Origin: Rhizobium sp. Q54
GTDB lineage: Bacteria > Pseudomonadota > Alphaproteobacteria > Rhizobiales > Beijerinckiaceae
Direction: 5' to 3'
DNA length: 63,121 nt
Assembly: GCA_945875875.1 (NCBI GenBank)
Contig: CAMCMI010000001.1
Location: forward strand, 1 to 63,121
Shown here: positions 16,493 to 62,002 of the stretch, in pieces
Layout of the letters: each line of letters starts with the position of its first letter
Numbering within the stretch: the first letter of the stretch is position 1
The notes under the pieces: model-generated
Seen by the model: only the letters and a program-made list of their open reading frames with translations
Told to the model about the DNA's origin: nothing
The model's database searches: none
Program-made: the position numbers and the translations under genes

Positions 16493-16622
16493 TCAGCCCG
16501 CATCCGTCAGTTAACAGGACGCCTGACAACAAGGCGCCTGCAAGGGAAGAAACGCCCGCTGGTCGCCACAAGGCGCCAGCGCCGACTGCAAAATCGGAAA
16601 CGATTACGAGAGGGAGAACATC

Positions 16623-17600: not shown

Positions 17601-17611
17601 GGATCGGCATC

Positions 17612-18088: not shown

Positions 18089-18089
18089 T

Positions 18090-19586: not shown

Positions 19587-19590
19587 ACCT

Positions 19591-20976: not shown

Positions 20977-20978
20977 AC

Positions 20979-21731: not shown

Positions 21732-21753
21732 CCATTTACCTGAGGAGGACAAC

Positions 21754-22737: not shown

Positions 22738-22749
22738 TGGCGTGAATCC

Positions 22750-24791: not shown

Positions 24792-24853
24792 AACGATCCT
24801 CCCGCGCATTCGCGAACGAATGCGCTCATGTAAACAAACGCAGCGCCGCAGCG

Positions 24854-25948: not shown

Positions 25949-25988
25949 ATGTTTCTCCCTCTTTTGGTTTTTCGGGTGCTGATAAAAA

Positions 25989-42861: not shown

Positions 42862-44028
42862 TTGACCGCACAGCCGACGACACCAGACGCCGTTTCCATT
42901 GCCCGCGATCTCATCCGCTGCCCGTCCGTGACGCCGGCTGACGCTGGCGCGCTCGGGCTGATCGAGTCTATGCTGGCGAGGGCGGGCTTCAAAACCGAGC
43001 GCGTTGTATTCTCGCAAGAAGGCTATCCCGACACCGACAATTTTTACGCCCGCTTCGGGACGCAGGCGCCGTGCCTGATGTTCGCGGGCCATACCGACGT
43101 CGTGCCGCCCGGCGATGCCGCGCAATGGCGGTTCGATCCGTTCTCGGCGCAGATCGCCGACGACATGATGTGGGGGCGCGGCGCGGTCGACATGAAGGGC
43201 GGACTGGCCGCCTCCATCGCCGCCGTTTTGGCCTTTCTGGCGCAAAACAAGGCGTTTGCAGGCTCCATCGCGTTTCTGATTACCGGTGATGAGGAAGGGC
43301 CTGCCGTCAACGGCACGGTCAAATTGCTGGAATGGGCGCACGCGAAGGGTGAGCGCTTCGATCATTGCATCCTTGGCGAACCCACCAATCCCGATGCGCT
43401 GGGCGATATGATAAAAATCGGGCGCCGGGGCTCGCTGTCAGGCGCCATTGAGGTTCAGGGCAAGCAGGGTCATGTGGGTTATCCCCATCTGGCCGACAAT
43501 CCTGTGCATCACATTCTGCGGCTGACGGGCGCCTTGCTGGCCAGGCCGCTTGATGCCGGCACGGCGCATTTCGACCCCTCCAACCTTGAGATCACGTCCA
43601 TCGACGTCGGCAATGCGGCGGTGAACGTGATTCCGGCAAAGGCGCGCGCGCAGTTCAACGTGCGGTTCAACGATTTGTGGACGCCGCAGACGCTCGCCGA
43701 CGAGCTTTCCGCCCGGCTCACTGCGACCGCCGGGAGCGCGCGCTATACGCTCACATTCCAGCCCACCAATGCGCTGGCCTTCCTCACGCAGCCCGGACCG
43801 TTCGTGGATTTGTTCGCCAGCGCCGTGGAGGCCGAGACCGGGCGCCGGCCTGTTTTGTCAACCACCGGCGGCACGTCGGACGCGCGGTTTATCTGCAATT
43901 ATGCGCAAGTCGTCGAGTTTGGGCTTGTGGGCCAGACCATGCATGCGGTGGACGAGCGCGTGAGCGTGGCGGACCTTCACAAGCTGTCCGCCATCTACCA
44001 GCGGGCGCTCGGCGCCTATTTCGCATAG
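42862..44028 (+). CDS. dapE: Succinyl-diaminopimelate desuccinylase
   Basis: [44 protein letters not shown]. Confidence 0.96.
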
Positions 44029-44092: not shown

Positions 44093-44443
44093 ATGGGACG
44101 TTTGTCGACGCATATTCTGGACACGCATTCCGGTCGCCCGGCGGAGGGCGTGACGATTGATCTGGTGGCGATGCAGCCTGCGGGCGAGCGCGTGCTGAAG
44201 AACGTGCGCACAAATGCGGACGGGCGCACGGACGAGCCGCTGATGACCGGCGATTTGCCTTTGGGCGTCTACGAGCTGCGCTTCCACATCGGCGATTACT
44301 TTCGAGGCCGCGGCGTCGATCTGCCCGAGCCTGCGTTTTTGGACGTCGCAGTAGTGCGCTTTGGCATTGCGGATTCTGCGGGCCATTATCATGTGCCGCT
44401 GCTGGCCACGCCCTGGTCCTATTCCACCTATCGGGGTTCATAA
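44093..44443 (+). CDS. uraH: 5-hydroxyisourate hydrolase
   Basis: LSTHILDT, TNADGR, HYHVPLL, terminal YRGS. Confidence 0.97.
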   Translation: MGRLSTHILDTHSGRPAEGVTIDLVAMQPAGERVLKNVRTNADGRTDEPLMTGDLPLGVYELRFHIGDYFRGRGVDLPEPAFLDVAVVRFGIADSAGHYHVPLLATPWSYSTYRGS

Positions 44444-45855
44444 TGGATTACCCGCGCGATCTTATCGGCTATGGCGCAAAGCCGCCGCATGCAAACTGGC
44501 CCGGCGGCGCCCGCATCGCGGTGCAATTTGTCATCAATTACGAAGAGGGCGGCGAGAATTGCATTCTGCACGGGGACGCAGCCTCCGAAGCGTTTCTGTC
44601 GGAAATCATTGGCGCGCAGGCATGGCCCGGCCAGCGGCATATGAACATGGAATCGATTTACGAATATGGCGCGCGCGCAGGCTTCTGGCGCCTGCATCGC
44701 CTGTTTACCGAACGGGCCATGCCCGTCACCGTGTTTGGCGTGGCGATGGCGATGGAGCGCAATCGCGAGGCCGTTGCGGCGATGAACGAGGCTGGATGGG
44801 AGATCGCTAGCCATGGGTTGAAATGGATCGACTACAAGGATTACGCGCCAGCCGATGAGCGCGCCCATATTGACGAGGCGGTGCGGCTGCATACGGAAGT
44901 CGCGGGCGCGCGACCGCTCGGGTTTTATCAGGGCCGCACCTCGGTCAATACGCTTGATTTGACCATGGCGGAAGGCGGTTTTCTGTATTCGGCGGATTCT
45001 TATGCGGACGAATTGCCCTATTGGGTTGAAGGCCCGCATGGCCCCCATCTCATCACGCCCTACACGCTCGACGCCAATGACATGCGCTTTGCAACGCCGC
45101 AGGGTTTCAACAGCGGCGATCAGTTTTTTGCCTATCTTAAAGACAGCTTCGACGTGCTCTACGCCGAAGGCGTCGAAGCGCCCAAGATGATATCGATCGG
45201 CCTGCATTGCAGGCTCGTCGGGCGCCCCGGTCGCGTAGCGGCGCTGGCGCGCTTTCTCGATTATGTGGAGAGCCATCAACACGCATGGGTGACGACGCGG
45301 CTTGATATTGCGCGCCATTGGATCAAGCATCATCCGCCCGCTGGCGGCTATAGGCCCAGCCGCATGTCGAAGGTTTTGTTCGTTGAAGTGTTCGGCGATA
45401 TTTTCGAGCATACGCCGCAGATCGCCGCGCGCGTATGTGAGGCAGGTTTAACGGGCGCGCATGACACAGCGCCGGGCCTGCATGAGGCGATGGTCGCGCA
45501 GATGCGGGCGATGAACGGCGATGAAAAGCGCGCGCTGATTTGCGCCCATCCCGATCTTGCCGGGCGGCTTGCGCTGGCCAAAAAGCTCACCGACGATTCC
45601 GCCAAAGAGCAAGGCTCCGCTGGCCTCGACAAGCTCAGCGCCGACGAGCTGGCGCGATTTACGGCGCTGAACGAGACTTACAAGAAACGCTTTGGCTTCC
45701 CCTTCATCATGGCGGTGAAGGGCGCGACCAAAGAACAAATTCTGGCGGGCTTCGAGCGCCGCCTTGCGCATGAACCAGAAACGGAATTCAACGAGGCGCT
45801 GGCGCAGATTGAGAAGATAGCGCTGCTGCGACTTTCCGACAGGTTGCCGTCATGA
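44443..45855 (+). CDS. puuE: Allantoinase PuuE fused to C-terminal OHCU decarboxylase (UraD)
   Basis: YPRDLIGY, NYEEGGE, YEYGARAG, DANDMRF, GLHCR; C-terminal FEH.P, AHPDLAG, S..EQ.SAGL, FGFPFIMAVKG. Confidence 0.95.
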   Translation: MDYPRDLIGYGAKPPHANWPGGARIAVQFVINYEEGGENCILHGDAASEAFLSEIIGAQAWPGQRHMNMESIYEYGARAGFWRLHRLFTERAMPVTVFGVAMAMERNREAVAAMNEAGWEIASHGLKWIDYKDYAPADERAHIDEAVRLHTEVAGARPLGFYQGRTSVNTLDLTMAEGGFLYSADSYADELPYWVEGPHGPHLITPYTLDANDMRFATPQGFNSGDQFFAYLKDSFDVLYAEGVEAPKMISIGLHCRLVGRPGRVAALARFLDYVESHQHAWVTTRLDIARHWIKHHPPAGGYRPSRMSKVLFVEVFGDIFEHTPQIAARVCEAGLTGAHDTAPGLHEAMVAQMRAMNGDEKRALICAHPDLAGRLALAKKLTDDSAKEQGSAGLDKLSADELARFTALNETYKKRFGFPFIMAVKGATKEQILAGFERRLAHEPETEFNEALAQIEKIALLRLSDRLPS

Positions 45856-47078
45856 GCGGCGCTGCGCGGATCGTCGCGCGTCTGCATGAGCTGAATGGCG
45901 TCAGCGATGATGAGGCAGGGCTGACGCGCCTCACGCTGTCGCCCGCCCACAAGCGGGCGGTCGGTATGGTCTCAGGCTGGATGCAGGAAGCCGGCCTCGC
46001 CACGCGGCTTGACGGCGCCGCCACGCTGGTGGGCCGTCAGGAAGGCTTGAAGCCCAACGCTAAAACGCTGCTGCTGGGTTCGCACATCGACAGCGTGCGC
46101 AATGGCGGCATGTACGACGGACCGCTTGGAATCGTGATCGCGATTGAGGCGCTGGACCGCTTGCGCGCGCGCGGCGTAAAGCTCCCCTTTGCGGTGGAGG
46201 TTCTCGCGTTTGGCGATGAGGAAGGCGTGCGGTTTTCAACCTCGCTCACCGGCTCGCGCGCGGTCGCGGGCGTCTTTGACGAAGCCTGCCTGGAGACGCG
46301 CGATGCAGCTGGCGTTTCGCGCCGGCAAGCGCTGGAGGCCTTTGGCTGCGATCCATCCAGCATCGCGCAGGAAGCGCGCGATCCTGCTGGCGTGCTGGGC
46401 TATCTCGAAGTCCATATTGAGCAGGGGCCGGTGCTTGAGGCCAGGGGCTTGCCGCTGGGAATTGTCACCGCCATCAACGGCGCCTCGCGAGGCGAAATCG
46501 TCATCACCGGCGCCGCCGGACATTCGGGCACGTTGCCGATGAACATGCGGCGGGATGCTGCGGCTGCGGGCGCAGAAATCGTGCTGGCGGTCGAGGAAAT
46601 TGGCGCCGGCAAGCCCGATCTTGTGGCGACCATCGGGCGCTTTGAAATTCGCAACAGCGCCGTCAACGTCGTGCCGGGCAATGCAACACTCTCGGTTGAC
46701 GTGCGCAGTTCGCGCGATGAAGATCGCGCTGCGGCAGTTGAAGAGATCGCCGCCCGCGTGCAGGAGATCGCGTTGCGCCGCAGTGTAAAGGCGCGGATGG
46801 CAATCAATTACGACATGCCTGCCGCGCCCTGCGATTCCGGCATGATGGGCAGGCTGGATCATGCCTTGAAACGTGGCGGGCATGAGGCTTTTCGATTGCC
46901 GAGCGGCGCGGGTCACGACGCAATGTCGTTTCGTGATCGTATGCCGCACGCCATGTTGTTTGTGCGGTGTCGCGGCGGCGTGAGCCACCGCCCGGATGAG
47001 TTTGCGTCGGAAGCCGACATCGCCAGCGCGCTGGCGGTTTTGGAAGACTTTATCGAGACGTTTGGAGCAGAGGCATGA
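45852..47078 (+). CDS. allC: Allantoate amidohydrolase (M20 family)
   Basis: GSHIDSV, DGPLG, DEEGVRF, EVHIEQGP, SGAGHDA, GVSH; purine-catabolism context. Confidence 0.88.
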   Translation: MSGAARIVARLHELNGVSDDEAGLTRLTLSPAHKRAVGMVSGWMQEAGLATRLDGAATLVGRQEGLKPNAKTLLLGSHIDSVRNGGMYDGPLGIVIAIEALDRLRARGVKLPFAVEVLAFGDEEGVRFSTSLTGSRAVAGVFDEACLETRDAAGVSRRQALEAFGCDPSSIAQEARDPAGVLGYLEVHIEQGPVLEARGLPLGIVTAINGASRGEIVITGAAGHSGTLPMNMRRDAAAAGAEIVLAVEEIGAGKPDLVATIGRFEIRNSAVNVVPGNATLSVDVRSSRDEDRAAAVEEIAARVQEIALRRSVKARMAINYDMPAAPCDSGMMGRLDHALKRGGHEAFRLPSGAGHDAMSFRDRMPHAMLFVRCRGGVSHRPDEFASEADIASALAVLEDFIETFGAEA

Positions 47079-48721
47079 AAGCCAACACAGGCGCAGTCAT
47101 CATCGACGGCGCAAACCTCACCGGCGCGGACGTGATGGCCGTTGCGCGTCGAGATGCAAATGGCGCCTATGCGCAGGTGAGCCTTGAAAGCGCTGCGCGC
47201 CAGCGGCTTGTCGCCACACGCACATGGCTCGACGAGAATTTCATGAACGACGATGCGCCGCTGATGTATTCCTTCAACACCGGCGTCGGCCTGTTCAAGG
47301 ATCAGCGCGTGCTGATGAGGGACATGATCGAATACCAGACGAAAACCGTTTACGCGCACGCCACCGGCGTCGGCGAGCCGTTTAGCGAAGAGATTTCGCG
47401 CGCGACGATGCTGCTGCGCGCCAATGCGTTCGCCTCAAACTATTCTGGCCCGCGCGTGCAATTGCTTGAGCGGTTGATTGATTGCCTCAATGCGGGTCTT
47501 GCGCCCGTCATCCCGCAAAAAGGCTCTGTCGGCGCCTCCGGCGATCTGGCGCCTCTCGCCCATATGTCGGGCGCTGTTTGCGGCTTTGAAGAAGCGGAGA
47601 TGTTCTATCAGGGCAAGCGTATGCCTGCGCGCCAGGCGTTAAGCGTTGCGGGCCTGTCGCCGACGTTTGATCTGTCCGCCAAGGACGCCTCGTGCCTCAT
47701 CAACGGCTCGACGGTTTCGCTCGCGCTTGCAGTCCTTGCGCTGGAGGATGCGCGCAATCTCATCAAGCATGCCGACATTGCACTGGTGATGTCGCTTGAA
47801 TGTTTGCGCGGCGAGAAAGTTGCGTTCCAGTCTCGCCTGCACAAGGCGCGCCCGCATCGCGGACAGGCGCTGAGCGCCAGCAATGTTGCGCGCATGATTG
47901 AAGATTCGCAGCGTTGCTCCGAGCCCGCGCGCCATGTGCTGTTTCCCGACGAGGCGCGCGACCCTTCAAAGCCGCCAGCGCCGCGCGTGCAGGATGTTTA
48001 TTCGCTGCGCTGCGGCCCGCAAGTGCATGGCCCGGTGCGCGAAGCTTTGGACTACGCGGACGGCATCATCAACACGGAAATCAATTCCGCAACCGATAAT
48101 CCGCTGGTGTTCGACAACGGCGTCGGCGGCTATGAAATCTTATCGGGCGGGCATTTCCACGGGCAATATGTGGCGCAGGCGATGGACGTCCTCGCCATCG
48201 CGATGACGGATTTGGGCTCGATTTGCGAGCGCCGCCTTGCGCGCCTTGTCGATCCCACCATGAGCTATGGCCTGCCGCGCAATCTGCTGGCGGGCAAGCG
48301 CGGGCTCAACACCGGCTATGCCACCGTGCAATGCACGATGTCGGCTCTGGTGATGGAAAACCGCACGCTCTCCATGCCGGGCTCCGTGGATTCGATTCCT
48401 GGCAAATCGAACGCCGAAGACCATGTTTCGAACTCGACATGGTGCGGTCGCAAGGCGCGCATGATCGTTGAAAACGTCGAGCAGATCGTGGCTGGTGAAA
48501 TCCTGATGGCGGGACAGGCGTTGTCGCTGGTGGACAGCGTGGAGAAAGATCACCCCATCGGATCGGGCGCGCGCGCGGCGCTTGGCGCGTTGCGTGTTGT
48601 GGTTGAACCGGCGCTTGACGGCGACCGCTGGTACGCAACGGAAATGCGCGCGGCGCTTGATCTTGTGCGCTCCGGCGCCCTCGTTGCAGCAGTGGAAGCA
48701 AGCGTAGGCGCCCTCGATTAA
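47075..48721 (+). CDS. MIO-dependent ammonia-lyase (HAL/PAL family), divergent
   Basis: [14 protein letters not shown] (ASG/MIO), [20 protein letters not shown]. Confidence 0.92.
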
Positions 48722-48741
48722 TTTTATTCAGGAGATTCACC

Positions 48742-50904
48742 ATGGCTCGCGTAAATATCGAAGGCCTAAAGATTGATTCAGAACTGCACGCCTTCATTGA
48801 GGGCGAGGCGTTGCCGGGCACCGGCGTCACCGCTCAGGCTTTCTGGGCGGGCTTTGGCGCGCTGGTACGCGATCTGGCGCCGCGCAACAAAGCGTTGCTC
48901 GAAAAGCGCGACGCCTTGCAGGGCCAGATCGACGATTGGCATCGCCACAACGCAGGCCGCCCGCATGATGCAGCAGCCTACGAGGGCTTTCTGCGCGAGA
49001 TTAATTATCTGCTGCCCGCGCCTGCCGCTGTCGTCATCGCCACCGGCGCCGTGGATGACGAAATCGCGCGCATCGCGGGGCCGCAATTGGTGGTGCCCTC
49101 CAGCAACGCACGCTACGCGCTGAACGCCGCCAATGCGCGCTGGGGATCATTGTACGACGCACTCTATGGAACTGACGCTATCTCCGAAGATGATGGCGCC
49201 GAACGCGAAAAGGGCTTCAATCCCGTGCGCGGCGCGCGCGTCATCGCCAAGGCCCGTGCAGTGCTGGATCTGGCGGCGCCGCTTGCGATTGGCTCGCATG
49301 CGGACTCCACAGGCTATAGCGTTGAAGGCGGCGCGCTGATCGTCACGCTGAAAGACGGCGCCCGCGCAAGCCTGAAGGCGCCGGCGCAATTTGCGGGCTT
49401 CACCGGGGATACGAGCGAGCCCAAATCTGTGCTGCTCGTCAATAATGGCATGCACCTTGAGATCGTGGTTGATCGCAATCATTCCATCGGCAAGACGGAT
49501 GCGGCGGGCGTTGCCGATCTCATCGTCGAGGCGGCCGTCTCCACCATCATCGACATGGAAGATTCTGTTGCGGCAGTGGACGCGCAGGACAAGATCCTCG
49601 TCTATCGCAATTGGCTTGGCCTGATGAACGGCACGCTGTCGGCGAGCTTCCCCAAAGGCGACGGCGTCATCGAACGCCGCCTGCGCCCGGACCGCGTTTA
49701 CAACGCGCCCGCTGGCGGCGAGCTGCGCCTGCATGGTCGCAGCCTGATGCTGATCCGCAACGTCGGCCATCACATGTATACCGATGCTGCGCTTGACAGC
49801 GCTGACGCCGAAATTCCCGAAGGCCTGATGGATGCTGCAATCAGCGTGCTCATCGCGATGCACGATCTGCGCAGCGCCGGGTCGATCCGCAATTCGCGCG
49901 CGGCCAGCGTTTATATTGTAAAACCAAAAATGCACGGGCCGGATGAAGTTGCGTTCGCAGACGAGATCTTTGCGCGCGTCGAAGATATGCTTGGCCTCCC
50001 GCGCTACACCGTGAAAATGGGCATTATGGACGAAGAGCGCCGCACCACGGTGAATCTGGCCGCCTGCATTCGCGCCGCGTCCAATCGCGTCGTGTTCATC
50101 AACACCGGCTTTCTTGATCGTACCGGCGACGAGATTCACACCTCGATGGAGGCCGGGCCGATGGTGCGCAAGAACGACATGCGCGCCTGCCCGTGGATAA
50201 AGGCTTATGAGGACAACAACGTTGACGTGGGCCTGATGATGGGCCTGCCTGGCAAGGCGCAGATCGGCAAGGGCATGTGGGCGGCGCCGGACCGCATGGC
50301 CGACATGCTGGAGCAGAAGATCGGCCATCCCCGCTCAGGCGCCAACACAGCTTGGGTGCCCTCGCCAACGGCGGCGGCGCTGCACGCGCTGCATTATCAT
50401 GAGCTGGATGTGTTCGCGCGCCAGAAAGAGCTGGCAAGCCGCACGCCCGCAGCGCTTTCTGACATTCTCACCATTCCCGTCTCGCAATCGAATTTTGCGC
50501 CGGACGCAGTACAGCAGGAACTCGATAACAACACGCAAGGCATATTGGGCTATGTGGTGCGCTGGATCGACCAGGGCGTCGGCTGCTCGAAAGTGCCTGA
50601 CATTCACGACGTCGGCCTGATGGAAGATCGCGCAACGCTGCGCATTTCCAGCCAGCACATCGCCAATTGGCTGCGCCATGGCGTTTGCACGCAAGAGCAG
50701 GTGATGGAAACGATGAAGCGCATGGCGGCCATCGTCGATCGCCAGAACGCCGACGATCCGCTCTATCGCCCGATGGCGCCGGCATTTGACGGGATCGCCT
50801 TCAAGGCCGCTTGCGACCTCGTGTTCAAGGGCGCCGAACAGCCCAACGGCTACACTGAATTTGTGCTGCACGCGCGCCGCCGCGAGGCGAAAGCTGCGGG
50901 CTGA
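48742..50904 (+). CDS. glcB: Malate synthase G
   Basis: [56 protein letters not shown]. Confidence 0.97.
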
Positions 50905-51043: not shown

Positions 51044-51058
51044 TGGCATACCCCTTGC
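51044..51058 (+). promoter_or_regulatory. sigma54 (-24/-12) promoter of urt-ure operon
   Basis: TGGCAT-ACCCC-TTGC about 40 bp upstream of urtA. Confidence 0.8.
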
Positions 51059-51099
51059 TCTCCCTGTAAGCGGCAATGATGCCGAACTGGGGTGTTTGC

Positions 51100-52392
51100 A
51101 TGAGCATCAATTTTGTAAGGCGCGGCGTTCTCGCCGGCATGGCGAGCGCGGCCATGATGTTGACCGTCGGGGCGCCTGCGATTGCGCAGGAAACCATCAA
51201 GGTCGGTATACTCCATTCACTTTCTGGCACGATGGCGATCAGCGAGACGACGTTGAAGGACGTCATGCTGATGCTGATCGAAGAGCAGAACAAGAAGGGC
51301 GGCGTGCTTGGCAGGAAGCTTGAGGCGGTCGTCGTTGATCCGGCCTCCAACTGGCCGCTGTTTGCTGAAAAAGCGCGCGAACTTATCACGCAGCATAAAG
51401 TCGCCGCCGTGTTTGGTTGCTGGACTTCGGTGAGCCGCAAGTCGGTGTTGCCGGTGTTCAAGGAACTCAACAACATCCTCTTCTACCCCGTGCAATATGA
51501 GGGCGAAGAGAGCGAGCGCAACGTGTTCTATACAGGCGCCGCGCCCAACCAGCAGGCAATTCCTGCGGTCGATTATCTGATGAGCAAAGACGGCGGCGAC
51601 GTTAAGCGCTGGGTGCTGGCTGGCACTGATTACGTCTATCCGCGCACGACCAATCGCATTCTTGAGGCCTATCTCAAGGCCAAGGGCGTCGCCTCTGAAG
51701 ATATTATGATTAACTACACGCCCTTCGGTCATTCCGATTGGCAGACGATTGTCTCGAACGTGAAGAAGTTCGGCTCCGCTGGCAAGAAGACCGCCGTCGT
51801 CTCCACCATCAACGGCGACGCTAACGTGCCTTTCTATAAGGAGCTCGCCAATCAGGGCGTGAAGGCAACCGACATTCCAGTCGTGGCTTTCTCTGTCGGC
51901 GAAGAGGAACTCGCCGGCGTCGATACCTCAAACCTCGTGGGCCATCTTGCGGCCTGGAATTATTTCCAGTCTGTGAAAAACCCTGCAAACGCTGAATTCA
52001 TCGCCAAATGGCAGGCCTTCACCAAGAACCCCAAGCGCGTGACGAATGATCCGATGGAAGCACATGTCGTTGGCTTCAACATGTGGATCAAGGCGATTGA
52101 AAAGGCTGGCACGACCGATCCCGACAAGGTGATCAGTGCATTGCCGGGCATTGAAGCGCCCAACCTCACGGGCGGCATGTCGAAGATGCTGCCGAACCAT
52201 CACATCACCAAGCCGGTGATGATCGGCGAAATCCGCGCCGATGGTCAGTTCGACGTCGTGTGGCAGACCAAGGGGCTCGTCGCTGGCGACGCCTGGTCCG
52301 ATTTCCTCGAAGGCTCTAAGGATCTCGAAGCTGACTGGGTTGGCAAGAAGTGCGGAAACTTCAACACCAAGACCAACAAGTGCGGTAGCTGA
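51100..52392 (+). CDS. urtA: Urea ABC transporter substrate-binding protein
   Basis: IKVGILHSLSGTMAISE, FGCWTSVSRK, YPVQYEG, TDYVYPRT. Confidence 0.97.
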   Translation: MSINFVRRGVLAGMASAAMMLTVGAPAIAQETIKVGILHSLSGTMAISETTLKDVMLMLIEEQNKKGGVLGRKLEAVVVDPASNWPLFAEKARELITQHKVAAVFGCWTSVSRKSVLPVFKELNNILFYPVQYEGEESERNVFYTGAAPNQQAIPAVDYLMSKDGGDVKRWVLAGTDYVYPRTTNRILEAYLKAKGVASEDIMINYTPFGHSDWQTIVSNVKKFGSAGKKTAVVSTINGDANVPFYKELANQGVKATDIPVVAFSVGEEELAGVDTSNLVGHLAAWNYFQSVKNPANAEFIAKWQAFTKNPKRVTNDPMEAHVVGFNMWIKAIEKAGTTDPDKVISALPGIEAPNLTGGMSKMLPNHHITKPVMIGEIRADGQFDVVWQTKGLVAGDAWSDFLEGSKDLEADWVGKKCGNFNTKTNKCGS

Positions 52393-52402
52393 TCGCACTG
52401 GC

Positions 52403-52426
52403 GGGCGGGCTTTTTGGAGCCCGCCC
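52403..52426 (+). terminator. Intercistronic stem-loop after urtA
   Basis: GGGCGGGCT-N6-AGCCCGCCC. Confidence 0.6.
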
Positions 52427-52521
52427 CTCTCCCGACGCAACTGCGAAGGCTTCGTGCCTTGCGGGCGCAGCGGTGCTATTCTATCAAGCGACTAATCGTA
52501 TCGATGCGCGTGGAGATAATC

Positions 52522-54132
52522 GTGATTCAGGTCAGGGCCTTTTGCGCCGCTGTTATCTCTCTCTTCGCCGTCCTCATGTTTGCGCCTGCGGCACAGGCGG
52601 ATTTTGCTTCATCTCTGGCGCGCTTTGCGCAGGATGAGTTTTCCGAAACGGCGCTCGCCATTGACGAGATTGCAGCTTCTGGTGATTCCCGCGCGCAACA
52701 AGTGCTTGAGGCGCTGGGCTCCGCGCGCCTGTTCGTTGATCCCGCCTCCAAAAAAGTCTATTGGCGCGCAGCCACAAGCGCCAGAACCATTCATGACGCA
52801 GCCAATGGCGAGCCTGTTGTCGATCCGCCCGCTGGCCTTCAGGTCGTGCGCATCAACAACCGGTTGCGCGGCGCCACGCTAAACGCAATAGGCGCGCTCA
52901 CCCTGATGGCGCCCGATCCGGCGCGTCGTCGCGCTGCCGCTGAATCAATCTTCAAGTCGCGTGACGCCAGTGCGCTGGCGCCGCTGGAGGCTGCGATTAA
53001 AGTTGAGAAAGACCCCTCAATAGCAACGTTATTTGCTCAAGCCCGCGCGGTGCTGATGCTTGCGGCCCCTCAGGCCACGAAAGATCAGCAGCTCGAAGCT
53101 ATCAGCATTCTGCGCATGCGCGCCGATATTGGCGCCATTGCAGCGCTGCGCTCCACTAACGCGTCGGCGGACGCCGACGTGAAGGCGCTGGCCGCCGACG
53201 CCGTCACCGCCATTGAGGCGCGCCTGAAGCTGATGAGCCACGTGCAAAACGTCTGGTACGGTTTGTCGCTGGGATCGGTGTTGTTGCTGGCCGCGATAGG
53301 GCTTGCGATCACGTTTGGCGTGATGGGCGTCATCAACATGGCCCATGGCGAGATGGTGATGCTGGGCGCCTACACCACGTTTGTGGTGCAGGAAGTCTTT
53401 CGCGCCTATGCGCCCGATTGGTTTGACTGGTCGCTTCCTGTGGCTCTGCCGCTGGCGTTTTTGTTCACCGGCCTTGTCGGAATCGCCATCGAGCGCGGCG
53501 TGATCCGCTTCCTTTATGGGCGCCCGCTTGAGACGCTGCTCGCGACCTGGGGCGTAAGCCTCATCCTGCAACAAGCGGTGCGCACAATCTTTGGTCCCAG
53601 CAATCGCGAAGTCGGCGCGCCGTCCTATATGTCGGGCGCGTTCGATCTGTTTGGCCTGTCGGTGACGTGGGGCCGGATGTGGATCATCGTCTTTACGCTA
53701 TTTGTGTTCGTCAGTTTGTTGCTGGCGCTCAAGCACACCTCCCTTGGCCTGCACATGCGCGCGGTCACGCAAAACAGGCGCATGGCTTCTGCCATGGGCA
53801 TTCGTACGCCATGGGTGGACGCAATGACGTTTGGCCTTGGATCAGGGCTTGCTGGAATAGCTGGCGTCGCGCTGTCGCAGATTGACAACGTGTCGCCCAA
53901 TCTGGGCCAGAGCTACATCATCGACAGCTTCATGGTGGTGGTGTTTGGCGGCGTTGGAAACCTTTGGGGGACACTGGTGTCCGCCTTTGCGCTTGGTGTC
54001 GCAAACAAGTTTCTGGAGCCAGTAGCGGGCGCCGTGCTTGCCAAAATATTCATTCTCGTTCTGCTGATCCTGTTCATTCAGAAGCGCCCGCGCGGTCTGT
54101 TCGCCCTCAAAGGCCGTGCGGTGGAAGCATGA
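52522..54132 (+). CDS. urtB: Urea ABC transporter permease with N-terminal periplasmic domain
   Basis: GVINMAHGE, RPLETLLATWG, IIDSFMVVV; GTG start after GGAG (start uncertain). Confidence 0.94.
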   Translation: MIQVRAFCAAVISLFAVLMFAPAAQADFASSLARFAQDEFSETALAIDEIAASGDSRAQQVLEALGSARLFVDPASKKVYWRAATSARTIHDAANGEPVVDPPAGLQVVRINNRLRGATLNAIGALTLMAPDPARRRAAAESIFKSRDASALAPLEAAIKVEKDPSIATLFAQARAVLMLAAPQATKDQQLEAISILRMRADIGAIAALRSTNASADADVKALAADAVTAIEARLKLMSHVQNVWYGLSLGSVLLLAAIGLAITFGVMGVINMAHGEMVMLGAYTTFVVQEVFRAYAPDWFDWSLPVALPLAFLFTGLVGIAIERGVIRFLYGRPLETLLATWGVSLILQQAVRTIFGPSNREVGAPSYMSGAFDLFGLSVTWGRMWIIVFTLFVFVSLLLALKHTSLGLHMRAVTQNRRMASAMGIRTPWVDAMTFGLGSGLAGIAGVALSQIDNVSPNLGQSYIIDSFMVVVFGGVGNLWGTLVSAFALGVANKFLEPVAGAVLAKIFILVLLILFIQKRPRGLFALKGRAVEA

Positions 54133-55280
54133 TTGCCAAGGTCTTTTTCGAACGCTACGACAGGGCGGGGCTGATCTTTCTGGGCGTCATGGCGACGATT
54201 GCGATCTTTGTGCCGCTGTCAAACCTGTTGCTGCCGACAGATTCGTTCCTGCATGTACCGACCTATGTGATGTCGCTGGTCGGCAAATATCTCTGCTATG
54301 CGATTCTGGCGCTCTCGCTTGATCTGGTATGGGGCTATTGCGGCATTTTATCGCTGGGGCACGGCGCTTTCTTTGCACTGGGCGGCTATGCGATGGGCAT
54401 GTATCTCATGCGCCAGATCGGCTCGCGCGGCGTCTATGGCAATCCGGATTTGCCCGATTTCATGGTGTTTCTGAACTGGAAAGAGATCCCGTGGTTTTGG
54501 TACGGGTTCGATATGTTCCCGTTTGCGCTGCTGATGATGGCGCTGGTTCCCGGCCTGCTTGCGTTTTTGTTTGGCTGGCTGGCGTTCCGCTCGCGCGTCA
54601 CCGGCGTATACCTTTCGATCATCACGCAGGCGATGACTTACGCATTGCTGCTGGCGTTTTTCCGCAACGACATGGGCTTTGGCGGCAATAACGGCCTGAC
54701 CGATTTCAAGGATATTCTGGGTTTCAACATTCAGGCGCAGGGTACGCGCGCCGCGCTGTTCTTCGCCACTGCGCTGTTGCTCATTCTCTCCTATATGCTG
54801 GCGCGCTGGATGGTGACGACGGCGTTCGGCAAAGTGCTGGTTGCCGTGCGCGACGCTGAAAGCCGCACGCGGTTTCTTGGCTATCGTGTCGAGCATTTCA
54901 AACTGCTGGTCTTTACGGTTTCGGCGGCGATGGCTGGAATTGCAGGCGCGCTTTACGTGCCGCAAGTGGGCATCATCAACCCGTCGGAATTTTCCCCCGC
55001 CAATTCGATTGAAGCGGTGATCTGGGTGGCGGTTGGCGGACGCGGCACGCTGGTTGGCGCAGCGCTGGGCGCAGTGGTCGTGAACTTCCTCAAGACGTGG
55101 TTTACGACGGGATTTCTGGCGCCCTATTGGCTGTTCATGCTGGGCGCGTTGTTCATTGGCGTTACGCTGGCGATGCCGAAGGGAATCGTCGGCACGCTGC
55201 AAGACTGGAGCGCGCGGCGCCGCGAACGTGCGACTTATACTGAAAAGTCTGCGCAGAAGATTGCGGAGCAGGGCGAATGA
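54129..55280 (+). CDS. urtC: Urea ABC transporter permease
   Basis: WGYCGILSLGH, FGGNNGLTDF, WVAVGGRG. Confidence 0.95.
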   Translation: MIAKVFFERYDRAGLIFLGVMATIAIFVPLSNLLLPTDSFLHVPTYVMSLVGKYLCYAILALSLDLVWGYCGILSLGHGAFFALGGYAMGMYLMRQIGSRGVYGNPDLPDFMVFLNWKEIPWFWYGFDMFPFALLMMALVPGLLAFLFGWLAFRSRVTGVYLSIITQAMTYALLLAFFRNDMGFGGNNGLTDFKDILGFNIQAQGTRAALFFATALLLILSYMLARWMVTTAFGKVLVAVRDAESRTRFLGYRVEHFKLLVFTVSAAMAGIAGALYVPQVGIINPSEFSPANSIEAVIWVAVGGRGTLVGAALGAVVVNFLKTWFTTGFLAPYWLFMLGALFIGVTLAMPKGIVGTLQDWSARRRERATYTEKSAQKIAEQGE

Positions 55281-56098
55281 ATCAGGATCAATCGCAATCG
55301 CAAGCACCCGCTGATATTGCTGCGTTTGAGGGCGGAACCAAAGCGCCGCCAGCTGTTACAAGCGCATTGCTTTATCTCGATGGCGTCAGCGTAAGTTTTG
55401 ACGGTTATCGCGCCATTCGCAATCTCTCGCTGTTCATTGAGCCGGGGGAAATGCGCGCCATCATCGGCCCCAATGGCGCGGGCAAAACGACGATGATGGA
55501 CATCGTGACCGGCAAGACGCGGCCTGACGAAGGCGACGTCTTGTTCGATCACGGCAAGCATGATCTGACCAAACTCGACGAGACCGCGATTGCGGAGCTG
55601 GGCATCGGGCGCAAGTTTCAAAAGCCGACGGTGTTCGAGAGCCACACGGTTGCCGACAACGTATTGCTGGCGCTCAGCGGCCCGCGCGGCCCGTTCGCGT
55701 CGCTGTTTGGCTGGCGCAACAAAGTGGCCCGGGAAAAAGTCGATGCAATCCTTGAAACCGCTGGCCTGCTGGAGCATCGCGCAAGGCTTGCGGGCGAGAT
55801 TTCCCACGGCCAAAAGCAATGGCTGGAAATTGGCATGTTGCTGGCGCAAGATCCTGCGATCCTGCTTGTGGACGAGCCTGTGGCGGGTATGACCGATCAC
55901 GAGACCGAGCTAACGGCGGCGCTGCTGCGGCAAATCAACAAAGAACACACAGTGATCGTGGTCGAACATGATATGGCCTTCGTGCGCGCGCTTGATTGCA
56001 AGGTGACGTGCCTGCATGAAGGCTCGGTGCTGGCGGAAGGAAGCCTCGACCGCGTGGCGGGCGACGAGCGCGTGATTGAAGTTTATCTCGGGCGCTAG
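55277..56098 (+). CDS. urtD: Urea ABC transporter ATP-binding protein
   Basis: GPNGAGKT, GRKFQKP, SHGQKQWLEIG, EVYLGR. Confidence 0.96.
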   Translation: MNQDQSQSQAPADIAAFEGGTKAPPAVTSALLYLDGVSVSFDGYRAIRNLSLFIEPGEMRAIIGPNGAGKTTMMDIVTGKTRPDEGDVLFDHGKHDLTKLDETAIAELGIGRKFQKPTVFESHTVADNVLLALSGPRGPFASLFGWRNKVAREKVDAILETAGLLEHRARLAGEISHGQKQWLEIGMLLAQDPAILLVDEPVAGMTDHETELTAALLRQINKEHTVIVVEHDMAFVRALDCKVTCLHEGSVLAEGSLDRVAGDERVIEVYLGR

Positions 56099-56139
56099 GC
56101 GCGCAGGAGTTTTTTATGTTGCGCGGTGAGGGTTTTTAG

Positions 56140-56841
56140 ATGTTGAAGGTCGAGAACGTCGATCTTTTCTATGGCGCCGCGCCAGCTTTACGCAGCGTCA
56201 GCGTTGAGGCGCAGGTCGGAAAAGTGGCTTGCGTGCTGGGCCGCAACGGCGTTGGCAAAACGTCGTTGCTGCGCGCCATCGTCGGCCATCAGCCCATAGC
56301 TGGTGGTGTAATCACGTTGGGCGGTACAGATATTTCAAAGCTTGCATCCTATGAGCGCGCGCGTCGCGGCATTGCCTATGTGCCGCAGGGGCGCGAGATT
56401 TTTCCGCTGCTCAGCGTGAAGGAAAACCTGGAGACCGGCTTTGCGCCCCTGTCGCGCAGCGAGCGTTTCGTGCCCGAGGAAATTTTTGAACTCTTTCCGG
56501 TGCTGGCTGAAATGATGGGTCGTCGCGGCGGCGATTTGTCGGGCGGGCAGCAACAGCAGCTCGCCATTGGCCGCGCGCTCGTCACGCGCCCCAAGCTTCT
56601 GGTGCTGGACGAGCCGACGGAAGGTATTCAACCCTCCGTCATCAAGGATATTGGCCGCGCGATTGATTACCTGCGTCGCAAGGGCGACATGGCGATCCTG
56701 CTGGTCGAACAATATTTTGATTTTGCGCGGGAGCTGGCCGACACTTTCATCGTGCTGGAGCGCGGCGAAGTCGTGATGGCGGGCAATGCGGATGATTTGA
56801 AGGGCGACGATGTCCGCTCACGCATTGCAATTTCAGCCTGA
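56140..56841 (+). CDS. urtE: Urea ABC transporter ATP-binding protein
   Basis: GRNGVGKT, PQGREIF, LSGGQQQQ, DEPTEGIQPS. Confidence 0.96.
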   Translation: MLKVENVDLFYGAAPALRSVSVEAQVGKVACVLGRNGVGKTSLLRAIVGHQPIAGGVITLGGTDISKLASYERARRGIAYVPQGREIFPLLSVKENLETGFAPLSRSERFVPEEIFELFPVLAEMMGRRGGDLSGGQQQQLAIGRALVTRPKLLVLDEPTEGIQPSVIKDIGRAIDYLRRKGDMAILLVEQYFDFARELADTFIVLERGEVVMAGNADDLKGDDVRSRIAISA

Positions 56842-57664
56842 GCGCGAGGGCGATCCGCTCGCCTCCATCCGCGCGCGCGGGCTTGTCTCGTTCAGCGCCG
56901 GAGAATTTCAAGGGGTCACGCGCCGCGTCAACGTGCGCGAGGAAGGCGCTCTGCGCGTGCGGTTTCCGCGCGAACAGACAGGGCGCCTTGACGCCGTGCT
57001 CGTCAATGTCGCAGGCGGCATGGCGGGCGGGGATCATTACAGGATTGAGATTGAAGCGCAGCCGGGCGCGCACATTGTCTTCACGTCTACGGCTGCGGAA
57101 AAAGTGTATCGCGCCTTGGGCGATGAAACCCGGAGCGACGTGCGCCTGACGCTTGGCGAGAACTCGCGCATCGCGTTCCTGCCGCAGGAAACCATTGTGT
57201 TTGATCGCGCGCGCCTGCGTCGCAGCAGTGAAATCGATATGGCGCGAGGCGCGCGTTTGGCTTTGTGCGACCTTGTGATCTTGGGACGCGCAGCGATGGG
57301 TGAGGACGTTCACACCCTCGACTGGTCCGATCAATGGCGCCTGCGCCGCGAAGGTGCGCTGATCTGGGCGGATGCCGCGCGGCTGCAAGGCGACGCGACG
57401 CAGATGTTGGCGCCCAAAGCGACCGGCGACGGCGCGCGCGCGTTCGGGACGTTGATTTATGCCGCGCCCGATGCGGAAACTTGTCTTGAGCCCTTGCGCG
57501 AAAGTCTGAACCGGGCCGATAATTGTCAGGCTGCGGCGACCGCGTTTGACGGACTGCTCGTGGCGCGCTTCATTGCGCAAGACGGGCAGGGCGCGCGGCG
57601 CGCTATCGAGCAGGCCTTGCGCGTCTTGCCGGACGCAAGCCCGCCGCGGTCTTGGGGTACATAG
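56810..57664 (+). CDS. ureD: Urease accessory protein UreD
   Basis: NVAGGMAGGD, TAAEKVYR, LPQETI, LGRAAMGE, PPRSW. Confidence 0.94.
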   Translation: MSAHALQFQPEREGDPLASIRARGLVSFSAGEFQGVTRRVNVREEGALRVRFPREQTGRLDAVLVNVAGGMAGGDHYRIEIEAQPGAHIVFTSTAAEKVYRALGDETRSDVRLTLGENSRIAFLPQETIVFDRARLRRSSEIDMARGARLALCDLVILGRAAMGEDVHTLDWSDQWRLRREGALIWADAARLQGDATQMLAPKATGDGARAFGTLIYAAPDAETCLEPLRESLNRADNCQAAATAFDGLLVARFIAQDGQGARRAIEQALRVLPDASPPRSWGT

Positions 57665-57692
57665 AACTTGGGCTACCTGATAGAGGCTGGTT

Positions 57693-57995
57693 ATGAATCT
57701 GACGCCGCGAGAAAAAGACAAATTGCTGATCTCGCTCGCCGCCATGGTGGCGCGCGGGCGACTGCAACGCGGCGTGAAGCTCAATCATCCCGAGAGCATC
57801 GCGCTCATCACCGATTTCGTGATGGAAGGCGCTCGCGACGGGCGCTCCGTCGCCGATCTGATGGAGGCGGCCGCCCATGTGGTGACGCGCGCGCAGGTGA
57901 TGGACGGCATTGCAGAGATGATCCACGACGTGCAGGTGGAGGCGACGTTCCCTGATGGAACCAAGCTTGTCACCGTTCACGATCCCATTCGCTAG
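57693..57995 (+). CDS. ureA: Urease gamma subunit
   Basis: [25 protein letters not shown]. Confidence 0.98.
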
Positions 57996-58004
57996 GAGCG
58001 CGCC

Positions 58005-58310
58005 ATGATCCCCGGAGAGATCCTTGTCCGCGAGGGTGAACTCATCCTCAATGAAGGCCGCGAAACGATTGCGCTGAGCGTGTCGAACACCGGCAATAGA
58101 CCAATACAAGTTGGCTCGCATTACCATTTCTTCGAGAGTAATAACGCGCTGCGCTTTGATCGCGAAAAAGCGCGCGGCTTCCGGCTCGACATAGCCGCAG
58201 GCACGGCGGTGCGCTTCGAGCCCGGCCAGACGCGCGACGTGACGCTTGTCGCGCTGGCGGGCGAGCGAGTGGTCTACGGGTTTCAGCAGAAAATCATGGG
58301 CCCTCTGTAA
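58005..58310 (+). CDS. ureB: Urease beta subunit
   Basis: [25 protein letters not shown]. Confidence 0.98.
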
Positions 58311-58343
58311 AACAGAACGCCGCCGCTTATAGAGGGCTGATCC

Positions 58344-60056
<1,713 letters not shown>

Positions 60057-60091
60057 AAGCGCAGATCAGACTTCAACATCCGGGGAAACGC

Positions 60092-60730
60092 ATGATCCGC
60101 GCGAATTTCATCAGCACCAAGGGCGCCTGGCAGGCGACCGCCGCCGACACCATTGTTCTCGACTACGAGGGGCGCCATCGCCGCCGTGTGACGATGACGG
60201 CCACGCGCGGCACGGAATTCTTGCTCGATCTGCCCGAAGCCGTCGTGCTGCGGGGCGGCGACGCGCTGATTTTGGAAGACGGGCGCCTGATCGAGATCGT
60301 GGCCGCGCCTGAAGAGCTGGCGGAAGTGCGCTGCGGCGATCCGCGCCAGCTTGCGCGCGTCGCCTATCACATCGGCAATCGCCATGTGCAGGCGGAGATC
60401 CTCGACAACCGGCTGCGCATGCGCCGCGATCATGTGCTGGAAGATATGGTGCGCGGACTTGGCGCCAAGGTCAGCCATATCGAGGCGCCGTTCGAGCCCG
60501 ACACTGGCGCCTATGAGCCCGTCGCAGAGGTAAAGCACGCGCATCATGGGCACGCGCATCATGGGCATGACCATCACGATCATAAAGCTCATGACCACGC
60601 TGCTCATGAGCACGGCGACGATTGCGGCTGCGATCATGAACATGCAGACCACAAAGACCACAAGCACGACAACAAGCCCACGCACTCGCACGATCACGCG
60701 CACGGAGCCCATGGCCATAAGCACGACTGA
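60092..60730 (+). CDS. ureE: Urease accessory protein UreE with long His-rich tail
   Basis: RHRRR, AYHIGNRH, PFEP motifs; His-rich C-terminus. Confidence 0.95.
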   Translation: MIRANFISTKGAWQATAADTIVLDYEGRHRRRVTMTATRGTEFLLDLPEAVVLRGGDALILEDGRLIEIVAAPEELAEVRCGDPRQLARVAYHIGNRHVQAEILDNRLRMRRDHVLEDMVRGLGAKVSHIEAPFEPDTGAYEPVAEVKHAHHGHAHHGHDHHDHKAHDHAAHEHGDDCGCDHEHADHKDHKHDNKPTHSHDHAHGAHGHKHD

Positions 60731-61391
60731 TCCATCGTTGGCGTTGTTTGCATGGCTCTCGCCGGCCTATCCGGTGGGGGCCTTCGCCTATTCGCATGGC
60801 GTGGAATGGGCGGCGGAATGCGGCGACGTCAGCGACGGCGCCAGCCTTTACGAATGGATCGACGCGCTGCTGGCGCACGGTTCAGGGCGCAACGATGCGC
60901 TGCTGTTTGCAGCCGCATGGCGAGCTGCGCAAACTAGCGAGCTGACGGACATTGCAGAGCTGGCCGTCGCGCTGGCGCCCTCGAAAGAACGCCGCCTTGA
61001 GACGCTGCAACAGGGCGGCGGCTTTTTGGCGGCCACGCAGGCCGCATGGCCCTGCGCGAAGCTTGATGATGCGATCAAGGCGATAGGCGCGCATAAAGCC
61101 TATCCGGTTTGTTTTGCCGCTGCGCTTGCGGCCCATGACTTGCCGCTGCGTCCGGCGCTGGATGGTTTCATCGCAGCGTTTGCAGGCAATCTTGTCTCTG
61201 CGGCCGTGCGCCTGAGCGTATTGGGACAGACTGAGGCGCAGGCGATTTTAGCGCGCTTGTCGCCGACCATTTCGCGTGTTGCGGACGAGGCCGAGCGCGG
61301 GACGCTTGACGATCTGGGCTCCTGCGCCTTTCGCGCCGACATCGCGTCCTTCCATCACGAAACCCAGTATTCAAGGCTGTTTCGATCATGA
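60711..61391 (+). CDS. ureF: Urease accessory protein UreF
   Basis: [16 protein letters not shown], terminal [11 protein letters not shown]; ATG 60711 after GGAG. Confidence 0.95.
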
Positions 61392-62002
61392 GCACAAACG
61401 GACCTTTGCGCGTGGGAATCGGTGGCCCTGTGGGCGCTGGAAAGACCGCATTGATGGAAGCGCTCTGCAAACGCTTCCGCGATCAATACGACATCTGCGC
61501 CATCACCAACGACATCTTCACCAAAGAAGACGCGCGCATTCTCACGCAGGCGGGCGCGCTGCCGGAAGAGCGCATCATGGGTGTGGAAACGGGAGGCTGT
61601 CCCCACACCGCTATTCGCGAAGATTGCTCGATCAATCTGCATGCGGTCGCTGAAATGCGCGCCAAATTTCCCAAGCTCGATCTTATCCTGATCGAGTCCG
61701 GCGGCGATAATCTTGCGGCAACGTTCAGCCCTGAACTCGCCGATATTACGATTTATGTGATCGACGTGGCGCAGGGCGAGAAAATCCCGCGCAAGGGTGG
61801 GCCGGGCATCACGCGCTCTGATCTTCTGGTCATCAATAAAATTGATCTTGCGCCAATGGTGGGCGCTGATCTGTCGGTTATGGAGGCGGATACGAAGCGC
61901 CAGCGCGGGCTGCGCCCTTTCGTGTTTACGAACATGCGCACCGGGACCGGACTCGACGTGATCGCAGCTTTCGTTCAAAATAGCGGAGGCTTAAGTAAAT
62001 AG
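61388..62002 (+). CDS. ureG: Urease accessory GTPase UreG
   Basis: [25 protein letters not shown]. Confidence 0.98.

What the first reader, a model, noticed from the sequence alone, without database searches (positions are those of the whole stretch)
44093..50904. Divergent MIO ammonia-lyase occupies the missing ureidoglycine-to-glyoxylate slot of a purine-catabolism operon
Seen: uraH, puuE-uraD, allC, a HAL/PAL-family gene and glcB are co-oriented and tightly coupled (ATGA overlaps at 45852 and 47075, 20 bp to glcB), followed by urt/ure. Established: UraH/UraD/PuuE/AllC convert hydroxyisourate to (S)-ureidoglycine; GlcB consumes glyoxylate and urease consumes urea. The link normally needs ureidoglycine aminohydrolase (AllE) plus ureidoglycolate lyase (AllA), or the PucG/HpxJ transaminase; none is in this window, nor are hutU/hutI/hutG. 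Inference: the MIO enzyme may deaminate ureidoglycine (or a related ureide/imidazole) to give glyoxylate + urea, which would be a new reaction type for MIO enzymes and an alternative purine-nitrogen pathway.
Basis: partly seen in the sequence, partly recalled or inferred. Interest (0 to 1): 0.8.

Follow-up and report, generated by a model that had tools for sequence, protein, structure and literature searches.

The report
MIO lyase in purine nitrogen breakdown
A histidine-ammonia-lyase-like enzyme that travels with purine-breakdown genes in one family of Alphaproteobacteria likely strips ammonia from ureidoglycine, which would be a new reaction for this enzyme family and would fill a gap in purine nitrogen recycling.

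Summary
In detail: uraH, puuE-uraD, an allantoate amidohydrolase (allC-like), an intact MIO lyase and glcB are tightly coupled. The lyase scores below every HAL/PAL/TAL/TAM cut-off and belongs to its own clade (65% identity or more), found in 42 of 200 genomes of the family.

Of those 42, 41 carry allC (55 of the other 158) and 40 carry puuE. In 18, allC lies within 2.5 kb; in 2 more the lyase follows urate hydroxylase. Several different purine operons end in it.

Only 3 of 42 carry allE or pucG, and none carries a second orphan, an M20 hydrolase that sits beside allC elsewhere. It is not the histidine-pathway enzyme: urocanase never lies within 20 kb, and all 11 genomes where it is the only HAL-family gene lack urocanase.

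Best reading (about 0.7, untested): an (S)-ureidoglycine ammonia-lyase. Against it: 32 of 96 allC genomes have none of the four candidates, about half of the clade has no purine neighbour, glcB coupling is local, and among allC genomes the exclusion rests on the uncharacterised M20 gene. Nine paper searches found no such activity.

The parts
44093..44443 (+). uraH, 5-hydroxyisourate hydrolase
   Evidence: TIGR02962 121.5 bits, cut-off 87.45
44443..45855 (+). puuE-uraD fusion (allantoinase + OHCU decarboxylase)
   Evidence: TIGR03212 545 vs 425; TIGR03164 198 vs 96
45852..47078 (+). allantoate amidohydrolase (HpxK-like AllC); predicted to make (S)-ureidoglycine
   Evidence: NF006775 515 vs 479; 45% identical to the K. 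pneumoniae gene following hpxJ; below ErtE cut-off (367 vs 520)
47075..48721 (+). MIO-dependent lyase of an uncharacterised clade (548 aa); proposed ureidoglycine ammonia-lyase
47267..47269 (+). codon of Tyr65, aligned with the catalytic Tyr of HAL
   Evidence: alignment to P. putida HAL; 182 of 182 clade sequences
47534..47542 (+). Ala154-Ser155-Gly156, MIO-forming triad
   Evidence: invariant in 182 of 182
48320..48334 (+). A416-T417..C420, clade-specific pocket residues (HAL Met/Ile..Val; C420 aligns with ergothionase Lys384)
48404..48418 (+). K444..A447-E448, clade-specific Lys and Ala beside the conserved Glu
   Evidence: 182 of 182
48742..50904 (+). glcB, malate synthase G (consumes glyoxylate); coupled only in this sub-branch
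   Evidence: TIGR01345 1106 vs 989
51076..62002 (+). urtABCDE urea transporter and urease genes (downstream context)
   Evidence: ORFs, named from sequence and not scanned against families; ureC is 81% identical to a TIGR01792 hit in G075
42862..44028 (+). dapE, co-oriented upstream neighbour, probably not part of the pathway
   Evidence: TIGR01246 414 vs 362

Best explanation
The gene encodes an intact MIO-cofactor lyase of its own clade that likely removes ammonia from (S)-ureidoglycine, the predicted product of the allantoate amidohydrolase next to it, so that glyoxylate and urea would be passed on to malate synthase and urease. Shown: the family, the intact catalytic residues, the separate clade and the genomic link to allC. 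Inferred mechanism: ureidoglycine is an aza-analogue of asparagine, and by CIP reasoning its (S) form has L-amino-acid geometry. Its alpha-amine would add to MIO while Arg312 holds the carboxylate. Tyr65 would take the proton from the ureido N-H that stands where the beta-carbon is in His/Phe/Tyr. Elimination would give a C=N imine (N-carbamoyl-iminoacetate) instead of a C=C acrylate. Water would turn this into ureidoglycolate or directly into glyoxylate + urea. The invariant K444, H360, Y87, C420 and H95 would form the ureido pocket. The enzyme would speed up and channel a decay that also happens on its own.
For: Catalytic set Y65, A154-S155-G156, N210, Y309, R312, F361 and E448 invariant in 182 of 182 clade sequences, Q306 in 181. 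HAL fold, TM 0.83. Monophyletic: 65 rows, SH-like 100. In 200 family genomes at least 90% complete: allC in 41 of 42 lyase genomes vs 55 of 158; puuE in 40 of 42 vs 85 of 158; among puuE genomes allC in 39 of 40 vs 49 of 85. allC within 2.5 kb in 18 of 42, plus puuD directly upstream in G001 and G051. Different purine arrangements: guaD-8-oxoguanine deaminase-uraH-puuE/uraD-allC-lyase (L064, L162); uraH-allC-lyase (G103); puuD-lyase; allC-lyase in another family (G243); lyase-AtzG-like-AtzE (L036). Alternatives are rare in lyase genomes: allE 2 of 42, canonical allA 1 of 42, pucG 1 of 42, M20 orphan 0 of 42. Any of allE, pucG or M20: 2 of 40 vs 43 of 85 among puuE genomes; within-genus permutation observed 2, mean 5.8, p 0.003. 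The window's own genus splits cleanly: 1 lyase, 3 allE, 2 M20. Five relatives with the same operon lack allE, urocanase, pucG and M20. Urease in 37 of 42.
Against: No assay. 32 of 96 allC genomes have none of lyase, allE, pucG or M20 (57), so the step is often left to spontaneous decay or unknown enzymes. Among allC genomes the exclusion (3 of 41 vs 23 of 55) rests on the uncharacterised M20 gene, which I picked from lyase-less loci; counting allE and pucG alone gives 3 of 41 vs 8 of 55. 22 of 42 lyase genes have neither allC within 2.5 kb nor puuD adjacent. 15 of the 18 allC neighbours are convergent and may be one inherited layout. In many genomes the lyase follows ugpBAEC. The within-genus test of the allC link is weak (p 0.049). 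His95 (HAL His83) is kept. The nearest sister group (49-51%) shares H360, K444 and N453 and shows no purine neighbours. 23 of 42 lack any PF04115 match, so ureidoglycolate would need to decay unaided. Urease is as common in M20 genomes (20 of 21), so it does not discriminate.
Confidence: 0.7

Rival explanations
1. The enzyme deaminates a different ureido- or 2-oxo/2-thio-imidazole amino acid (an oxidised histidine derivative, or an amino acid freed from a hydantoin) and merely shares PuuE and AllC as hydantoinase and carbamoylase.
For: Sister clade B (44-47%) sits with ErtD and ErtE, which pass their cut-offs, or beside a urocanase homologue (G291). The clade shares V71, K75-D76, Y87 and small+Thr at 416-417 with T. 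denticola ergothionase. His95 is kept.
Against: The partner hydrolase scores as allantoate amidohydrolase, not ErtE. No ErtD orthologue in the genome (best 29%). No urocanase-like hydratase in 14 of 42 genomes and none within 20 kb (71, 111). Neighbours such as puuD, uraH and guaD are purine-specific.
Confidence: 0.13
2. It acts on an unrelated small amino acid (for example asparagine, giving fumaramate) and clusters with allC, urt and ure only through shared nitrogen-starvation control and an old chromosomal neighbourhood.
For: 22 of 42 have no close purine neighbour; convergent layouts and the ugp link are common. Asparagine is the carbon analogue of ureidoglycine, so a C-H elimination would be ordinary MIO chemistry.
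Against: Does not explain 41 of 42 co-occurrence with allC, repeated placement as the last gene of purine operons, or exclusion with allE, pucG and M20. No fumaramate-type partner recurs among neighbour clusters.
Confidence: 0.08
3. It acts on ureidoglycine by another route: expelling urea to give iminoacetate, or feeding an oxalurate branch.
For: Same genomic evidence as the best reading; no AllA-like gene in 23 of 42 genomes; one locus has AtzG-like + AtzE (HpxXY-like) genes directly downstream (L036).
Against: An intact MIO plus catalytic Tyr is built for amine elimination; oxalurate formation needs an oxidation or transamination that MIO does not do (own knowledge).
Confidence: 0.05
4. It is an ordinary, divergent histidine ammonia-lyase.
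For: Best PDB and family hits are HALs; His83-, Phe329- and Glu414-equivalents are kept.
Against: Six clade members score 461-490 against the HutH cut-off of 539, while hut-operon HALs of such genomes score 665-673. All 11 genomes where it is the only HAL-family gene lack urocanase. In 24 of 28 urocanase genomes hutU sits beside a second, canonical HAL and in 0 of 28 beside this gene.
Confidence: 0.04

Closest known systems
Histidine ammonia-lyase HutH (TIGR01225; P. putida 1B8F/1GKM, T. cruzi 6V6H)
   Same: Fold (TM 0.83), MIO triad, catalytic Tyr, carboxylate Arg, His83, Phe329 and Glu414 equivalents; about 35-43% identity.
   Different: Below cut-off; never near hutU; invariant pocket changes at HAL positions F59>V, L75>Y, L79>T/S, S82>A, N328>H, P333>Y, M382>A, V386>C, S410>K, Q413>A, M419>N (numbers counted from the alignments).
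Ergothionase (T. denticola, 6S7J)
   Same: Shares V71, K75-D76, Y87 and small+Thr at 416-417.
   Different: Ergothionase lacks the Ala-Ser-Gly triad and needs Lys384 (bioRxiv 10.64898/2026.04.22.720169, Introduction); this clade has the triad and Cys at that position.
Ureidoglycine aminohydrolase AllE/UGLYAH and UGLYAH2 (TIGR03214)
   Same: Proposed same net step: ammonia off (S)-ureidoglycine, after allantoate amidohydrolase.
   Different: Cupin-family hydrolase, unrelated in sequence and fold; present in only 2 of 42 lyase genomes.
Ureidoglycine-glyoxylate aminotransferase PucG/HpxJ (3ISL, 3NNK)
   Same: Uses the same substrate as an L-amino acid; follows allC/hpxK.
   Different: PLP transamination to oxalurate (product recalled); found in 6 of 200 genomes, 1 with the lyase.
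PAL / TAL / aminomutases (TIGR01226, TIGR03832, TIGR04475)
   Same: MIO superfamily PF00221.
   Different: Scores far below cut-offs (239/519, 356/501, 328/800); no secondary-metabolite context.

Membership tests
MIO ammonia-lyase superfamily (PF00221) | Profile match and fold | tested here: met
   Pfam 521 bits; Foldseek TM 0.83 to HAL
MIO ammonia-lyase superfamily (PF00221) | Ala-Ser-Gly triad, catalytic Tyr, carboxylate Arg | tested here: met
   182 of 182 clade sequences
MIO ammonia-lyase superfamily (PF00221) | MIO actually formed; tetramer; C=C product from an aromatic amino acid | not testable with these tools
   needs protein chemistry
Histidine ammonia-lyase HutH | TIGR01225 / NF006871 cut-off | tested here: not met
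   479/539 and 473/524; four more clade members also below
Histidine ammonia-lyase HutH | Linked to or co-occurring with urocanase | tested here: not met
   0 of 28 within 20 kb; 14 of 42 genomes lack hutU
Histidine ammonia-lyase HutH | Imidazole-pocket residues (Ser82-His83, Met382, Glu414; roles recalled) | tested here: inconclusive
   His and Glu kept; Ser>Ala and Met>Ala
Ergothionase / trimethylammonia-lyase | No Ala-Ser-Gly triad | tested here: not met
   triad present
Ergothionase / trimethylammonia-lyase | Lys384 | tested here: not met
   Cys420 in 181 of 182; mapped through an ergothionase-like protein, assuming a one-residue offset in chain numbering
PAL/TAL/TAM/PAM | NCBIfam cut-offs | tested here: not met
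AllE/UGLYAH | Cupin family TIGR03214 | tested here: not met
   no match in the assembly, which includes this gene
AllE/UGLYAH | Works like it: releases ammonia from ureidoglycine | not testable with these tools
   inferred from context
Allantoate amidohydrolase (partner gene 45852-47078) | NF006775 cut-off and purine-operon context | tested here: met
   515/479; K. pneumoniae gene after hpxJ scores 562 on the same model; below TIGR03176 and ErtE cut-offs
Allantoate amidohydrolase (partner gene 45852-47078) | Measured allantoate hydrolysis | not testable with these tools
   no assay; Arg213 does not separate it from ErtE

The most novel reading that the evidence does not exclude
A MIO enzyme that eliminates ammonia across a C-N bond of a non-aromatic ureide (ureidoglycine to a C=N imine, then glyoxylate + urea). 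It would define a third enzymatic fate of ureidoglycine beside AllE and PucG, with an uncharacterised M20 hydrolase as a fourth, mutually exclusive solution in the same family of bacteria.
Probability: 0.65. Interest if true: 0.85.

Novelty: new variant of a known kind. Interest (0 to 1): 0.74.

Why it matters
Characterised MIO lyases act on His, Phe or Tyr and give C=C acids (bioRxiv 10.64898/2026.04.22.720169, Introduction). A member acting on a small ureide, with the proton taken from nitrogen, would widen the chemistry of a family much used in biocatalysis and bear on the amine-adduct mechanism. It would also close a gap in purine nitrogen recovery for Microvirga, Bosea, Salinarimonas, some Methylobacterium and relatives, where the protein is now labelled HAL or aromatic amino acid lyase. 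The claim is directly testable with cultured strains and a published coupled assay.

Tried and rejected
Papers: nine searches found no report of a MIO or HAL-like enzyme on ureidoglycine; most subscription papers are not in the library. Earlier scan notes: nothing relevant. ESM Atlas gave only generic HAL clusters. Promoter, terminator and sigma-54 scans were at chance level. Metatranscriptome runs gave only short near-identical contigs over the operon, which cannot show transcription. The allantoicase search had silent controls. One search used the wrong strand and was replaced. The first tree timed out; the FastTree run left out L040 (frameshifted), five duplicate or near-duplicate loci (L008, L017, L029, L035, L080), 112 of the 120 close homologues, and representatives past P0185 or outside 480-600 aa; it holds no characterised enzyme. 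No pucG was seen beside allC in 20 lyase-less or second-copy loci. The Arg213 motif does not separate AllC from ErtE. Any-strength AllA matches (19 of 42 vs 52 of 158) and urease do not discriminate. The plasmid collection held only sister-clade and HAL hits, at most 47% identity. The conserved allC-lyase-glcB triplet was rejected as a general feature.
Full report
Observation. Family scans give UraH, a PuuE-UraD fusion, an allantoate amidohydrolase of the NF006775 type, a PF00221 lyase and malate synthase G. The amidohydrolase is 45% identical to the K. pneumoniae gene that follows hpxJ (54, 56) and scores below the ErtE and E. coli AllC models. The assembly (76.7% complete) gave no AllE, AllA, urocanase, PucG orthologue or second HAL, and has xdhA/xdhB homologues elsewhere. 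Five relatives with the same operon gave no AllE, urocanase, PucG or M20 orphan and one marginal AllA-family match; their completeness is not given. G107, same genus and 100% complete, has the lyase directly after allC and lacks AllE, AllA, PucG, M20 and urocanase.

The protein. It hits eight NCBIfam models and passes none. Its model (pLDDT 86.6) has the HAL fold. Among 315 aligned sequences, 182 at 62% identity or more keep Y65, the Ala-Ser-Gly triad, N210, Y309, R312, F361 and E448 without exception, so this is a live enzyme. They also share a nearly invariant pocket unlike HAL: V71, K75, Y87, A94, H360, Y365, A416, T417, C420, K444, A447, N453. In a FastTree of 127 rows the clade is one branch (65 rows, support 100). 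Its nearest sister lies beside a regulator without purine genes; a further sister lies with ErtD/ErtE or a urocanase homologue. Mapping through an ergothionase-like protein shows several shared positions with T. denticola ergothionase, but Cys where that enzyme has its essential Lys384. The enzyme thus comes from a branch of histidine-derivative lyases and has been remodelled.

Distribution. In an even sample of 200 family genomes (at least 90% complete), identities fall into 65-75% (42 genomes), 44-47% (5) and 43% or less; I cut at that gap. The same genomes were searched for puuE, allC, allE, AllA family (27 at E 1e-45 or better) and PucG/HpxJ (6 at 53% or more). allC is in 41 of 42 lyase genomes against 55 of 158; the exception has the lyase 148 bases from a contig end on the side where its two congeners carry allC. 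puuE is in 40 of 42 against 85 of 158. Among 380 Alphaproteobacteria the clade appeared in only two genomes of other families: G243, with allC 75 bases upstream, and G378, where the gene carries a stop and no allC passes the cut-off.

Neighbourhood. allC lies within 2.5 kb in 18 of 42 genomes, 3 co-oriented and 15 convergent; two more have the lyase directly behind urate hydroxylase puuD. Co-oriented purine arrangements differ and fall on separate branches of the tree: the window's operon; guaD-8-oxoguanine deaminase-uraH-puuE/uraD-allC-lyase opposite xdhAB (L064, and L162 from a metagenome); uraH-allC-lyase near puuD and a xanthine permease (G103); puuD-lyase; lyase-AtzG-like-AtzE (L036). The other 22 genomes show no close purine neighbour (20 loci fetched, 2 fragmented ones not). 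glcB follows only in the window's sub-branch.

Exclusion. allE is in 2, canonical allA in 1 and pucG in 1 of the 42. Reading lyase-less loci I found an ArgE/DapE-like M20 protein beside allC; it occurs in 21 of 200 genomes, none with the lyase and none with allE. Among puuE genomes, 2 of 40 lyase genomes have any of allE, pucG or M20, against 43 of 85; shuffling within genera gives a mean of 5.8 (p 0.003). Kin are not independent and the M20 gene was chosen after the fact. The review PMC13751858 (passages seen) states that UGLYAH2 is an allantoicase exclusive with allantoate amidohydrolase, which fits allE here (7 of 24 with allC), so that part of the exclusion is indirect. Among allC genomes, allE plus pucG alone give 3 of 41 against 8 of 55, which is no clear signal; 32 of 96 allC genomes have none of the four (57).

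Not histidine use. Urocanase is missing in 14 of 42 genomes, including all 11 where this is the only HAL-family gene. Where it is present it lies within 5 kb of a second HAL in 24 of 28 and within 20 kb of this gene in none. Two such second HALs pass the HutH cut-off.

Mechanism (inferred). MIO lyases remove an alpha-amine while a Tyr takes the beta proton (bioRxiv 10.64898/2026.04.22.720169, Introduction and passages read). Ureidoglycine is the only alpha-amino acid between allantoate and glyoxylate (own knowledge); by CIP reasoning the (S) form has L geometry, and its ureido N-H stands at the beta position. Elimination would give N-carbamoyl-iminoacetate, then ureidoglycolate or glyoxylate + urea. 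Ureidoglycine decays on its own to glyoxylate, ammonia and urea (PMC4016543, passages seen), and ureidoglycolate decays to glyoxylate and urea (PMC3793230, passages seen). This explains both why AllA is not needed downstream and why many allC genomes manage with no enzyme. Which pocket residue binds what is a guess; no docking was possible.

Comparison and verdict. It is a member of the MIO superfamily, not of HutH, PAL/TAL/TAM or ergothionase by the tests run, and it probably works like AllE. The review passages list only aminohydrolase, aminotransferase and spontaneous routes for ureidoglycine; nine searches of the held library found no MIO route. The primary papers of the Percudani and Seebeck groups were not seen, and no supplements were read. 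I rate the ureidoglycine ammonia-lyase reading at about 0.7 and the finding as a new variant of a known kind.

Noticed in passing
L071:5242-6465 (-); also L070, L088, L094, L103, L106, L109: An uncharacterised ArgE/DapE-like M20 hydrolase beside allC in purine clusters; in 21 of 200 genomes, never with the lyase or allE. A second candidate for the step after AllC; best PDB hits are weak.
   Followed up: partly
L065-L069, L108, L125: Sister MIO lyase clade (44-47%) in operons with ErtD and ErtE but no urocanase beside it; in L066-L069 also a cucumopine-synthase C-terminal domain protein. Substrate unknown, perhaps a modified histidine or a hydantoin-derived amino acid.
   Followed up: partly
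L010-L038 (many), L048, L049, L053, L084, L087, L089, L093: The ugpBAEC glycerol-3-phosphate ABC operon is repeatedly co-oriented upstream of the lyase, or next to allC where the lyase is missing; unexplained.
   Followed up: no
L124:8579-10220 (G378): Clade member with an internal TGA in a genome without an allC over the cut-off; possible decay after loss of the partner, or an assembly error.
   Followed up: partly
L145-L155: Nearest sister group (49-51%) sharing H360, K444 and N453, mostly followed by a GntR-like regulator (named from sequence), no purine genes near; function unknown.
   Followed up: partly
L107:9001-10653: Burkholderia plasmid lyase (47%) lacking the His83 equivalent, upstream of a Rieske dioxygenase, cysteine hydrolase and dienelactone hydrolase.
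   Followed up: no
window 51044-51058: Sigma-54-like site (one mismatch) just before urtA; such matches are not above chance in the window.
   Followed up: no
window 15077-26879: Cluster with two PrpD-like proteins, an SDR, a LeuC-type dehydratase and an isocitrate-lyase/PEP-mutase family gene; looks like an uncharacterised acid-catabolic pathway.
   Followed up: no
32 allC genomes listed (e.g. G017, G020, G064, G133): allC present with none of lyase, allE, pucG or M20; further orphan enzymes or spontaneous decay.
   Followed up: partly
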